Assembly (NCBI GenBank): GCA_963762115.1
Contig: CAVXJH010000006.1
Coordinates: 128,001-192,000 of the forward strand
DNA from: Candidatus Babeliales bacterium
Lineage (GTDB): Bacteria > Babelota > Babeliae > Babelales > JANWKD01
DNA: 64,000 nt
Direction of reading: 5' to 3'
Each line of letters begins with the position of its first letter. Position 1 is the stretch's first letter. Shown here one piece after another: positions 18,888 to 44,545 of this stretch. The position numbers and the translations under genes are program-made. The notes beneath the pieces were generated by a model, which saw only the letters and a list, made by a program, of their open reading frames with translations, was not told the origin of the DNA and searched no databases.

Positions 18888-18986
18888 TGTCATTGCAAGC
18901 CGTTTTACTTGGCTAAAAGTTTCGAAAAATTCGCCAATAATGCGGCCTGTCCGCCGAAGTTTCAACGAAGGCGGATGGCAACCCAG
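18888..18986. repeat. Family A arm containing a nested family B palindrome (CCTGTCCGCCGAAG...GAAGGCGGA)
   Basis: TGTCATTGC...TGGCAACCCAG arm interrupted by 18946-18975. Confidence 0.7.
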
Positions 18987-19026
18987 ATAATAAAATTAGT
19001 TCCGTAAATTAAAAATCAAAATCTTA

Positions 19027-19090
19027 TTATAATTCGGCCCTATGCGGGCAGCACAAAGGTATTGCGTGCCCGCATAGGGCCGAATTATAA
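19027..19090. repeat. Long palindrome, family C (GGCCCTATGCGGGCA)
   Basis: TTATAATTCGGCCCTATGCGGGCA-16 nt-TGCCCGCATAGGGCCGAATTATAA. Confidence 0.85.
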
Positions 19091-20907: not shown

Positions 20908-20990
20908 CATAAGGTATTTCTGATTCTTCAAATACCTTATCTAAAATAAATTTTTGTTTTCACGTTTTAGTTTATAAATTATCAATATTA

Positions 20991-21490
20991 TTCGGCCCTA
21001 TGCGGGCAGGCATGAATATATTGCGTGCCCAATATATTCAATACAAGGGCAACTAAGAGAAGAATCTCTTAGTAATCTCTCTTAACGCAAAAAAGTCGGA
21101 CTTGATCATTGCATGCTCAAAGTCCTCCACCAGTTTTGCTAATGAGGAAATTTTTGATTTTATCCGATGACTTGCGATTGATAATTATCTACTTCGTAGA
21201 ATCACAATTGTCATCTTAAAAAGCAAATCAACAAAGTTATAAATAATACTGGATTCTGAATCTACTTTGCTAAAAGCTTCGTAGGTTCAGAATGACATTT
21301 CTCATTTCGAAAGAAAATTTATAAATATATGTTAGTCCGGTAGTGCGTTGTGCACCCGAAAGAATGATGCGCAGCATCATGATGTGTGGTGCATATACGC
21401 GCGGAAAAAATGATCCAACGGAACGTTGGGGCCCTTGTATCAAAGGTATTGGGCAAACAATACCTTTGTGCTGCCCGCATAGGGCCAAAT
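20991..21490. repeat. ~500-bp hairpin-rich element bounded by inverted family C repeats
   Basis: GGCCCTATGCGGGCAG...ATACAAGGGC at left and its reverse complement at right; internal family A arm at 21249-21297. Confidence 0.7.
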
Positions 21491-21548
21491 GATATTAAAA
21501 ATAAATATTACTTTTGTTTTAAGATATTAAGCAAACCATAAATAATTA

Positions 21549-21949: not shown

Positions 21950-22145
21950 TGTCATTGCGAGGCAACATTGTTGCCGTGGCAACCCAGAATATAAAATTCT
22001 ATTTATTTCCCAACTCCTTTACATTGTAATATTTTTTGAAACAAATCAAAAATAGATCATATATAAACATCTGTTTTTCATATGAATTTATTTATGAGAA
22101 CATTATAATCTGGGTCACCACGGCACAATGTGCCTCGTGATGACA
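21950..22145. repeat. Family A doublet (MITE/REPIN-like, ~200 bp)
   Basis: TGTCATTGCGAGGCAACATTGTTGCCGTGGCAACCCAG ... CTGGGTCACCACGGCACAATGTGCCTCGTGATGACA. Confidence 0.85.
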
Positions 22146-22196
22146 TTTTTGATTACTTGGTTTACGGTAAAATTATTGGCTATGTACAATAAAGGT

Positions 22197-31534: not shown

Positions 31535-31614
31535 CTTTATTCCTTTACAATAATAATTTTATGAAATGTTTAAAACTAGTAAAATTACACCAAAAACAAA
31601 AAAACATTAACCTT

Positions 31615-31835
31615 GAAATGTCATTCCGAGGCACATTGTGCCGTGGGAACCCAGATTATAAAATTCTATTTATTTTTCACTATTATTTTTTAACAATAAA
31701 GTTGAAGTTATAAAATTTTTATTATTACAAGCAGGTGTTCTATTTATCTGTTATTGTTTTTTCAATAAGGATTTTATTTATTAAAACATTATAATCTGGA
31801 TTCCCACGGCATAATATGCCTCGGAATGACATTTC
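31615..31835. repeat. Family A doublet with ~47-bp near-perfect terminal inverted arms
   Basis: GAAATGTCATTCCGAGGCACATTGTGCCGTGGGAACCCAGATTATAA ... TTATAATCTGGATTCCCACGGCATAATATGCCTCGGAATGACATTTC. Confidence 0.88.
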
Positions 31836-31933
31836 GATTTTTAACATCTTTTGGCTAAGTTAAATGCTGCATGCCTTAGATAACTTTTTTTATCAAATTC
31901 ACATTAGATCATATCGATACAAATTATAAAAAA

Positions 31934-41207: not shown

Positions 41208-41344
41208 GATCAGCCCCGTAGAGGTGAAGATAGTCCAGCCGTCGCTTATCCACGCCTTCAGGCTTGGCAAGCTTGTATGTTAAATCAAAATGATTTTAAA
41301 GCTAAATTTTGTTAATTTATGATCAGTTGTTTTGAAATTAATTG

Positions 41345-41495
41345 TTTGAGAAGCTGATAGATCTCGTGTCAAGCTTGGTCTCAAAGGACCGTGTCATAGT
41401 TTGAGACTATCAGCTTATACAAAAATGACCTCGAACAATCACTAGAGACGTATCAAGTACATACGATCTCGCATGTCTACAAGCCAGAGGTATTT
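41345..41495 (+). ncRNA. IS110 bridge RNA (target- and donor-binding loops; 5' end may extend to ~41285)
   Basis: Two stem/internal-loop/hairpin modules carrying TGTCAAGCT + GTCATAG (target guides) and ACAATCACT + TACAAG (donor guides). Confidence 0.88.
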
Positions 41496-42437
41496 ATGAA
41501 AAATATATCAAAAGTATTTATAGGTGTCGATATTTCAAAAAACACTTTAGATGTTTATATCCATCCAGTAGGAAAATCTTTAAAAGTATCAAACTCAGAA
41601 GTTGGAATAACGGAGATCATTAAAGAATTAGTTAAATATGATATCGAACAAATTGCATGCGAAGCAACTGGTGGGTATGAAAAATTACTTGCTCGAATAT
41701 TAAAAAAAAATTGTTATTATCTTTGGATCATCGATCCAAGAAGAATAAAAGGCTATATTGTTGCTAGTGGCTGCAAAAGCAAAACGGATAAAATTGATGC
41801 TCGAAAAATTGCTGAATTTGCTTCTAAAAATTCTCCTGATTATGAGATAATGAACAAAAGCGAAAATCAAGAAAAATTACAAGCTTTGGTCAATCGTAAA
41901 AATGACTTGGTAAAATTTTTAGTTGCCGAAAAAACAAGATCTAAACATCCATCTCATGCATTATATGCATCAAGTATAAAGAAATTTATCAAAATCTTAG
42001 AGTGCGAAATCAAATCAATTGATTTAAAGATACAAGATTTAATTCAGCAAGATGAAAAATTAAATACAAAATCAAAAATTTTGGAGTCAATTCCAGGAAT
42101 AGGCAAAACTTCAGCTGCAACATTATTATCATTCGTTCCTGAACTTGGTCAAATAAGTAATAAAAAAGTATCAGCACTCATTGGTGTTTGTCCTTATGAG
42201 AATGAAAGTGGAAGTTATAAGGGTAAAAAATTCATCAGAGGTGGAAGAACTATTCCAAGAAATATGCTTTATATGTGTGCATTAACAACTATTAAATATC
42301 ATCTCCCATTAAAGGAACTTTACGATCGTTTAATAACTTCTAAAAAACCTTTTAAAATAGCTATCGTAGCTATTATGCATAAACTTATTGTGATTGCTAA
42401 TTCTTTACTAAAAAAAGGTGAATTATGTAAAGCTTAA
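41496..42437 (+). CDS. IS110 family DEDD recombinase/transposase
   Basis: GVDISK, CEATGGYE, KTDKIDA, SIPGIG, ENESG catalytic Ser loop, RGGR. Confidence 0.97.
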   Translation: MKNISKVFIGVDISKNTLDVYIHPVGKSLKVSNSEVGITEIIKELVKYDIEQIACEATGGYEKLLARILKKNCYYLWIIDPRRIKGYIVASGCKSKTDKIDARKIAEFASKNSPDYEIMNKSENQEKLQALVNRKNDLVKFLVAEKTRSKHPSHALYASSIKKFIKILECEIKSIDLKIQDLIQQDEKLNTKSKILESIPGIGKTSAATLLSFVPELGQISNKKVSALIGVCPYENESGSYKGKKFIRGGRTIPRNMLYMCALTTIKYHLPLKELYDRLITSKKPFKIAIVAIMHKLIVIANSLLKKGELCKA

Positions 42438-42566
42438 TATTGTTTAGCTTTATTAAAAAATATTTGACTTTTAACACAATCACTATGGCGGACAGCTTTC
42501 GCAGACATTTTCTTATCATAAATCATTTAAAAAAATGGCCACGCCAGCTGAAGCCTTGGCGAAAGC

Positions 42567-43022
42567 TGGTGGAGGCGATGGGAATCGAACCCATGTCCGC
42601 ATCATGTCGGACCCAAGGCGCTACATGCTTAGTTTTCGAATATACAAACGATAACCCTCAAAAACAAAAGATGAAATCGTAGGTTAGTTGCGTGATATTC
42701 TTTTGATTACCCAGCTAAGAAGTCTAACAAAAGAATCTTATCTGATATTATACGTGTCAGCTCAACTGATAAGCACGCCTCGCTGACAAGATCAAACAGA
42801 GGTATTAGCAATAGCCAACTACAGAAGATACTTCACTGAAAGCGTTTCTAAAAACGTTTTGAGCTGTAAATACCACTTCATTAGCTAATGTTTTAACTCT
42901 GGTTGATAGACCAATATTTTGATCTGCATTTATTGTTTTTGACCACTTTTTTTACGAGATCTCAGTCAAAACTCGACATGCTCCTTGCGTCATCTATAAC
43001 ACGTCGAAACCTGGACGCCCCC
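42567..43022 (-). ncRNA. ssrA: tmRNA (456 nt)
   Basis: 5' GGGGGCG..GGTTTCGAC and 3' GGGTTCGATTCCCATCGCCTCCACCA forming an Ala-type acceptor stem with G3-U; internal ATAAAT-GCA resume context. Confidence 0.95.
42805..42927 (-). CDS. tmRNA tag reading frame ADQNIGLSTRVKTLANEVVFTAQNVFRNAFSEVSSVVGYC
   Basis: GCA resume codon after ACAATAAAT, 40 codons to TAA. Confidence 0.75.
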   Translation of the reverse strand, partial: ADQNIGLSTRVKTLANEVVFTAQNVFRNAFSEVSSVVGYC

Positions 43023-44440: not shown

Positions 44441-44545
44441 CTGGATCCTCCTTCGCTTCTCCAGGCCTTCCTACTTCGCTCCTACGGAGCTACGAAGGAT
44501 AAATCAGGCTTGGCAAGCTACGGCGGACAGGTCCCCACGATGACA
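44441..44545. repeat. Triple-nested palindromic repeat; contains an empty IS110 target
   Basis: CTGGATCC[CCTTCGC..(CTACTTCGC..GCTACGAAGG)..TGGCAAGCTACGGCGGACAGG]..GATGACA. Confidence 0.8.

What the first reader, a model, noticed from the sequence alone, without database searches (positions are those of the whole stretch)
44504..44531. IS110 targets a host palindromic repeat; an empty target lies about 2 kb away
Removing the IS restores CCTTCAGGCTTGGCAAG-CT-ATGGCGGACAG. An uninterrupted copy, TCAGGCTTGGCAAG-CT-ACGGCGGACAGG, sits at 44504-44531, and a diverged relative is at 18946-18975 (reverse strand). The guide therefore points at a dispersed intergenic repeat (family B), analogous to IS621 using REP sequences, which gives the element many harmless landing sites. 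The guide reads TGTCAAG/ATGAC rather than TGGCAAG/ATGGC, suggesting mismatch tolerance or a different optimal repeat variant elsewhere in the genome.
Basis: partly seen in the sequence, partly recalled or inferred. Interest (0 to 1): 0.72.

Follow-up and report, generated by a model that had tools for sequence, protein, structure and literature searches.

The report
RNA-guided transposon targeting one repeat variant
A bacterial jumping gene of the RNA-guided IS110 family sits in the same spot of a dispersed intergenic repeat in four of its five copies, but only in one spelling of that repeat, so the nearby uninterrupted copy is likely a poor target; this is a new example of a known strategy.

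Summary
Observation confirmed, interpretation partly. The IS110 at 41272-42484 is IS621-like, with a predicted bridge RNA. It has 5 near-identical copies: 4 split a dispersed hairpin repeat at TGGCAAG|CT|ATGGC, and 1 lies inside an IS481-like gene where only the right arm and position 7 match. Those 4 are among only 5 of 148,326 CT sites with at least 10/12 exact guide matches. Of 15 long-form repeat copies, all 4 reading ATG after the core are occupied and none of the 11 empty ones reads ATG (p=7e-4). The 44504 copy reads ACGGC, an A:C mismatch beside the core, so it is likely not a preferred target. No perfect-match variant exists in the assembly. The right-arm 'mismatch' is a U-G wobble; the left-arm one is real. 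Relatives show guide-target covariation (58/65 right-arm positions, 14/14 handshake pairs) and are retargeted to other spellings or other repeat families. The repeat family sits upstream of small GIY-YIG genes (27/30 loci), often at tRNA ends. Repeat targeting by IS110 is known (IS621, ISPpu10).

The parts
41272..42484 (+). IS110 element including both CT cores (1211 bp with one core); 5 copies genome-wide, at least 99.8% identical
41496..42437 (+). IS110 recombinase, 313 aa; D12, E56, D98, D101 and S238 align with the IS621 catalytic residues
   Evidence: PF01548 + PF02371; NF033542 above cut-off; IS621 and ISCro4 structures at E 1e-32; positions
41352..41415 (+). [quoted passage not shown]
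   Evidence: consensus fold and covariation over 14 elements; coordinates
41429..41492 (+). predicted donor-binding loop: left donor guide 41435-41443, right donor guide about 41477-41483, handshake bases 41484-41485
   Evidence: matches the element's own ends; stems covary
42464..42469 (+). -35 hexamer TTGACT; 17 nt from TATGTT (41276-41281) once the two ends join in a circle (predicted junction promoter)
   Evidence: sequence only
41236..41273 (+). 5' part of the occupied long-form repeat, ending in the left target and core
42483..42496 (+). core and 3' part of the occupied repeat (right target ATGGC)
42535..42570 (-). short-form repeat abutting the tmRNA 3' end, the inverted partner of the occupied copy
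42567..43022 (-). tmRNA; its 3' end lies 83 bp from the IS
   Evidence: Rfam RF00023, 148 bits
44446..44531 (+). unoccupied long-form repeat with a nested 33-nt repeat (44471-44503); core 44518-44519; right target ACGGC with a mismatch at position 11
18946..18975 (-). short-form relative; poor match to both guides (4/7 left, 3/5 right)

Best explanation
This is an IS621-like IS110 element whose predicted bridge RNA likely steers recombination into the ATG-reading spelling of a dispersed intergenic hairpin repeat: four of its five copies sit there, and the ACG-reading copy at 44504 is likely a poor target. Inferred by analogy with IS621: the element forms a circle, the joined ends make a promoter for the bridge RNA, the donor loop pairs with the joined ends, and the target loop pairs with 7 nt + CT + 5 nt. 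Shown from sequence: the right guide pairs 5/5 with all five used sites (one wobble each); the left guide pairs 6/7 with the repeat (mismatch at distal position 3); the donor-loop handshake C pairs with target G7 at all five sites. Inferred: core-proximal right-arm pairing is strict and distal left-arm pairing is lax.
For: 4/5 copies at the identical 14-mer. These are 4 of the 5 sites with >=10/12 exact matches among 148,326 CT sites. ATG copies 4/4 occupied, non-ATG copies 0/11, Fisher p=7.3e-4. C3:69054 is a 92%-identical paralogue of the window's occupied module, reads ACGGC, and is empty. The left repeat halves of the occupied sites differ at 2-5 of 35 nt while the IS copies differ at 0-2 of 1213, which points to separate insertions. 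In 13 related elements the right guide pairs with its own target at 58/65 positions (shuffled mean 33, 0/20000); the handshake base pairs with target position 7 in 14/14 as C:G, G:C or U:A. A 98%-identical allele in run X3 lies in another copy of the repeat and has A41396G, which would pair with ACG. ISPpu10 experiments found a strict right guide and a left guide tolerant at distal positions (10.64898/2026.03.19.712850, passages). IS621 uses REP sites through a G-T wobble (PMC11208160, passages).
Against: No activity, transcript or circle was seen; the four runs laid were contigs only and showed no end-to-end joint. Five insertions are a small sample. 1/5 copies has almost no left-arm pairing, so the element is not strictly repeat-specific and an ACG site cannot be ruled out. 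ATG spellings are only 7 of 105 long-form copies in other genomes (my count) and 0 of 13 in the same-genus genome, but 4 of 15 here, which is somewhat high. The X3 allele rests on one contig of depth 4, and its right target could not be read. The permutation tests treat related elements as independent.
Confidence: 0.8

Rival explanations
1. One reading: any copy of the repeat family, including 44504, is an equally good landing site, and the empty copies have simply not been hit yet.
For: The left arm at 44504 is identical to the used sites. The off-repeat fifth copy shows loose specificity. In the same-genus genome the sister element leaves many matching targets empty: 16 of 30 fetched copies read a used right-arm spelling, against 3 occupied.
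Against: 4/4 ATG copies occupied against 0/11 others, p=7e-4. The difference is an A:C mismatch two bases from the core. Relatives' right guides track their targets at these positions, 12/13 at each of the first three.
Confidence: 0.12
2. The T after the core is made by the insertion itself (ACG converted to ATG), or the element carries ATG as part of its right end, so ACG copies are the true pre-insertion targets.
For: All 5 right flanks start with ATG. No empty long-form ATG copy exists in this genome, and the spelling is rare elsewhere (7/105).
Against: The fifth site rebuilds to a sequence 100% identical over 202 nt to two intact copies of its host element (99.5% to a third), so nothing was added or changed. 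Wobble positions are left uncorrected. Uninterrupted long-form ATG copies occur in 6 other genomes (L173), and short-form ATGGC copies lie empty in this genome. The window copy has a left-arm G that pairs with this T.
Confidence: 0.05
3. Targeting is mainly structural: the recombinase favours a hairpin whose 3' arm is the left target, together with a right-guide match, and the left guide matters little.
For: All five used sites have 6/7 left-target bases in a predicted hairpin arm, a feature of 19 of 778 right-arm-compatible sites (30-nt window). The off-target site ranks 5th-10th of about 778 for hairpin strength in the 25- and 30-nt windows and 21st in the 40-nt window. ISPpu10 uses such a stem-loop (10.64898/2026.03.19.712850).
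Against: Post hoc, and one off-target event. Stronger hairpin sites are empty, and 3 of 4 identical IS481-like sites are empty. Most relatives' targets show no such upstream hairpin (3 of 15 non-G000 loci reach 5 or fewer than 5 paired at best; none reach 6). Left guides match their targets near the core (13/13 at position 6, 12/13 at position 7).
Confidence: 0.15

Closest known systems
IS621 (IS110 group) inserting into E. coli REP sequences
   Same: DEDD + serine recombinase (E 1e-32); bridge RNA in the left end; CT core; donor right arm TGTAT identical; repeat target reached through a wobble; handshake pairing at position 7 (PMC11208160 passages; PMC11208158 section 11).
   Different: Right guide pairs over 7 nt naturally (4 in IS621). 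The target is a low-copy repeat (15 long-form copies) of a different family, with no GTAG end seen. Only one spelling is used, and it is exhausted.
ISPpu10 / ISPpu9 in Pseudomonas putida REPs
   Same: Repeat targeting; strict right guide and lax distal left guide; left target inside a hairpin arm (10.64898/2026.03.19.712850 part 1, passages, discussion; PMC1525189 abstract).
   Different: The hairpin gate was tested for ISPpu10 and is only suggested here. It is not general among the relatives.
REP / REPIN repeats (GTAG and CGTC superfamilies, RAYT-associated)
   Same: Short, intergenic, imperfectly palindromic, often in inverted pairs. The target of the G001 sister element looks CGTC-type (PMC3733652 passages).
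   Different: This family lies at tRNA and tmRNA 3' ends and upstream of small GIY-YIG ORFs. The two Y1 transposase loci viewed are not flanked by it.
Half-match off-target insertion by IS621
   Same: Insertion at a site matching one arm only (10.64898/2026.08.31.748434 part 1, passages).
   Different: That study scored donor-arm half matches and left out right-target-only sites; the natural case here is right-target-only plus position 7.

Membership tests
IS110 group (IS621-like bridge recombinase) | N-terminal DEDD RuvC domain plus C-terminal domain with catalytic serine | tested here: met
   D12, E56, D98, D101, S238
IS110 group (IS621-like bridge recombinase) | Left-end non-coding RNA with target and donor internal loops matching target and element ends | tested here: met
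   96% of cells paired and 11 of 33 pairs with two-sided changes over 14 elements (structure taken from the consensus fold, with 2 pairs removed); guide matches. Predicted, not shown transcribed.
IS110 group (IS621-like bridge recombinase) | Scarless insertion at a 2-nt core, no target duplication | tested here: met
   the fifth site rebuilds to intact copies at 100%
IS110 group (IS621-like bridge recombinase) | Promoter formed across the joined ends | tested here: met
   TTGACT-17-TATGTT; sequence match only
IS110 group (IS621-like bridge recombinase) | Handshake base of the donor loop pairs with target position 7 | tested here: met
   14 of 14 elements, three pair types
IS110 group (IS621-like bridge recombinase) | Circular intermediate and expressed bridge RNA | tested here: inconclusive
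   contigs of four DNA runs only; no end-to-end joint; no RNA run laid
Classical REP (GTAG/CGTC, RAYT-mobilised) | Multi-copy, extragenic, imperfect palindrome | tested here: met
   15/15 long-form copies outside ORFs >=120 aa, mask covers 84%; folds (z -0.2 to -5.0, so strength varies)
Classical REP (GTAG/CGTC, RAYT-mobilised) | Terminal GTAG or CGTC tag | tested here: not met
   by inspection of the aligned copies
Classical REP (GTAG/CGTC, RAYT-mobilised) | Flanks a RAYT gene | tested here: inconclusive
   5 PF01797 matches of near-equal score; the 2 viewed are not flanked by this repeat; GIY-YIG association seen instead

The most novel reading that the evidence does not exclude
The 'host repeat' is itself the cis module of an undescribed selfish element: inverted hairpin pairs that grow from tRNA and tmRNA 3' ends and are spread by small stand-alone GIY-YIG nucleases. 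This IS110 clade is then a hyperparasite whose bridge RNA keeps being rewritten, by single bases, to follow sub-variants of that repeat or to hop to other repeat families. That gives a natural record of guide-target tracking, including target exhaustion followed by right-arm-only, hairpin-assisted spill-over.
Probability: 0.3. Interest if true: 0.62.

Novelty: new member of a known kind. Interest (0 to 1): 0.38.

Why it matters
Repeat targeting by IS110 is established, so the core finding is ordinary. Its value is as a clean natural data set. Five insertions and eleven near-identical unused sites isolate one core-proximal base as the likely determinant, and a one-base sister allele would open those sites. 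Fourteen relatives (57-100% identity) give natural target and handshake covariation and compact 313-aa recombinases with a naturally long right guide. The side result, that the target family lies upstream of small GIY-YIG genes at tRNA ends, was not found in my searches and may merit its own study.

Tried and rejected
I first guessed that the right-arm mismatch was a handshake position. Rejected after reading PMC11208158 section 11: handshake positions are 6-7, left of the core, and position 13 is an ordinary U-G wobble. Search for a perfect-match target: 0 in the assembly. One ancestral insertion spread with its flanks: rejected, since the flanks differ more than the IS. Looking for an empty allele or circle in public runs: X4 holds a contig across the locus without the IS, but its 139 intervening letters did not align and were not shown; X1 and X2 added no new site; no circle joint. 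Single-sequence folding did not recover the donor loop; the alignment fold did. The transposase tree left 10 of 20 inner branches open, so no order of retargeting events is claimed. The right-arm permutation (28/65) came from a one-column parsing error and is replaced. The loose repeat pattern gave 43 hits against 25 in the control, so it is not used for counts. Loci at 44% identity or less (L005-L009, L027-L034, L037, L038, L041) were left out of the guide analysis because the parser relied on close-clade motifs. The hairpin idea did not generalise to relatives. Three look-ups of earlier scan findings returned nothing. Cluster look-up gave no names.

Full report
OBSERVATION. The quoted sequences are in place: 44504-44531, the rebuilt empty site at core 41272-41273 / 42483-42484, and the short relative at 18946-18975. 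The element spans 1211 bp plus one core, between an RNase E/G gene and the 3' end of tmRNA. It encodes a 313-aa IS110 recombinase whose only solved relatives are IS621 and ISCro4, with the DEDD and serine residues in place. Joining the ends gives TTGACT-17-TATGTT. A consensus fold of the left ends of 14 related elements gives two internal-loop hairpins with two-sided changes at 11 of 33 pairs. The genome (1.53 Mb, 7 contigs, 95% complete) belongs to a one-order phylum of small genomes; I suspect Dependentiae/Babelota from recall, and no call shows it.

There are 5 full-length copies, 99.8-100% identical. Four lie at TGGCAAG|CT|ATGGC in the repeat, all in one orientation. The fifth lies at GCCTTTG|CT|ATGAT and splits an IS481-like transposase gene that has three intact copies elsewhere (best family NF033577, below its cut-off). 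With the IS copies removed, 5 of 148,326 CT sites have at least 10 of 12 exact matches to the guides; 4 are the occupied repeat sites and the other has two mismatches close to the core. Counting wobbles as pairs, 14 sites reach at least 6/7 left and 5/5 right, and 10 of those are empty, so exact matches rank the used sites better than wobble-tolerant ones. No site matches the guide perfectly.

IS 44504 A TARGET? The long form of the repeat has 15 copies (14 seeds plus 44446-44531), all outside long ORFs. All 4 that read ATG after the core are occupied; none of the 11 empty ones reads ATG (Fisher p=7.3e-4). The right guide has A opposite that base: it pairs with T but not with the C of ACGGC. 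The left-arm difference at position 3 is a true mismatch but distal. For ISPpu10, distal left mismatches were tolerated and the right guide was strict (10.64898/2026.03.19.712850, part 1 of 8, passages, discussion). The best internal control is C3:69054, 92% identical over 135 nt to the window's occupied module, reading ACGGC and empty. In run X3 a 98%-identical allele sits in another copy of the repeat and carries A41396G, which would pair with ACG, plus G41368T in the distal left guide; this is one contig of depth 4, and its right target was not readable. I conclude that 44504 is likely a poor target for this allele. Against this: five events are few, and ATG spellings are rarer elsewhere (7 of 105 copies outside this genome, my count; 0 of 13 in the same-genus genome). 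Conversion at insertion is unlikely, because the fifth site rebuilds exactly, wobbles are kept, and uninterrupted ATG copies exist in 6 genomes.

THE FIFTH COPY. It pairs 5/5 on the right and at position 7, and at only one other left position (a wobble). Its left target is the 3' arm of a 9-bp hairpin (z -3.4), ranking 5th-10th of about 778 right-arm-compatible sites in 25- and 30-nt windows and 21st in a 40-nt window; the four repeat sites also have 6/7 left bases paired. This resembles the ISPpu10 stem-loop gate and the half-match insertions of IS621 (10.64898/2026.08.31.748434, part 1 of 6 and passages, where right-target-only sites were not scored). It is one event, found post hoc; stronger hairpin sites are empty and most relatives' targets lack the hairpin. 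Three identical sites of this class remain empty.

RELATIVES. 19 of 261 phylum genomes hold a relative at E<=1e-40, and 4 metagenome loci were added. For the 14 distinct elements at 57% identity or more, the donor guides are nearly fixed while the target guides vary. The right guide pairs with its own target at 58 of 65 positions in the 13 with a readable right flank (shuffled mean 33); the worst case, G087, has a rearranged junction and an empty guide-matching copy nearby. The donor-loop handshake base pairs with target position 7 in 14 of 14, as PMC11208158 section 11 (read in full) predicts. Kin are not independent, so these tests overstate. G164, G114 and G220 hit the same repeat family in ATG, ACG and TCG spellings (family pattern 38, 1 and 40 matches, controls 0). 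The 75%-identical element of the same-genus genome hits a CGTC-like repeat (32 matches, control 0) and there leaves many matching sites empty. G058 and G243 hit two further repeats (15 vs 1; 16 vs 0). The targets of G001b, G232, L017, L019 and L020 were not counted. The tree is too weak to order these changes.

WHAT THE REPEAT IS. Six of the 15 long copies lie within 100 bp of a tRNA or tmRNA (5, plus the window copy), as the inverted partner of a short form that begins at the RNA's 3' end. Two such pairs in this genome precede small GIY-YIG ORFs. That ORF family occurs in 65 of 121 sampled genomes. In the 30 loci fetched (best match per genome) the repeat motif lies within 300 bp upstream in 27, against 4 of 30 control windows, and a tRNA lies within 400 bp upstream in 20. 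That the nuclease spreads the repeat is inference. PMC3733652 (passages) describes GTAG and CGTC repeats and finds no dedicated transposase for CGTC. My searches for a GIY-YIG link to REP-like repeats or tRNA ends gave no relevant listing (listings only), nor did searches for IS110 in the suspected phylum. The library lacks most subscription papers, and no supplements were read.

VERDICT. A real, IS621-like, repeat-targeting IS110: a new member of a known kind (PMC1525189 abstract lists several such elements; Choi 2003 was seen only as a reference title). The 'empty target', 'many landing sites' and 'better variant elsewhere' parts are not supported. Shown: copy number, sites, guide pairing, covariation. 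Inferred: expression, circle, strictness at position 11, hairpin help, and the role of the GIY-YIG protein.

Noticed in passing
G000 C5:10616-10876 (L043), C5:155825-156073 (L044); L156-L185: Small stand-alone GIY-YIG ORFs (about 80 aa) sit just downstream of inverted pairs of the target repeat family (27/30 loci), often right after a tRNA 3' end (20/30); a possible undescribed tRNA-associated selfish module.
   Followed up: partly
G000 C3:533000-533206 (L042), C3:558505-558723 (L045); window 21972-22148 and 31597-31853: A second GIY-YIG subfamily is flanked on both sides by inverted CGTC-type repeats; gene-less copies of such repeats occur in the window. PMC3733652 reports no dedicated enzyme for CGTC repeats.
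   Followed up: no
window 44446-44531: Nested repeats: a short-form copy sits inside a long-form copy, and the whole appears to lie within a CGTC-like frame.
   Followed up: partly
window 19024-19090, 20973-21050, 21431-21507: A further dispersed inverted-repeat family, with more than a dozen copies genome-wide, often adjacent to the IS110 target repeat.
   Followed up: no
L021 (G114): The first 17 nt of the IS left end are tandemly duplicated at the left junction.
   Followed up: no
L026 (G087): The IS lies in a local duplication: the right junction does not match the guide, while an empty guide-matching copy of the left flank follows about 250 bp downstream.
   Followed up: partly
G164:C19:8512-9112: Eight copies of the repeat motif at exact 69-bp spacing (plus one 102 bp before), an array-like arrangement.
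   Followed up: no
G004:C1:795232-797822 (L072, L076): Two full-scoring tmRNA matches about 2 kb apart, each followed by long-form repeat copies.
   Followed up: no
G000 C3:498763, C6:283117, C6:404294, C7:24556, C5:13616: Five near-identical IS200-type Y1 transposase copies, plus four IS481-like copies: several recently expanded IS families in a 1.5-Mb genome.
   Followed up: no
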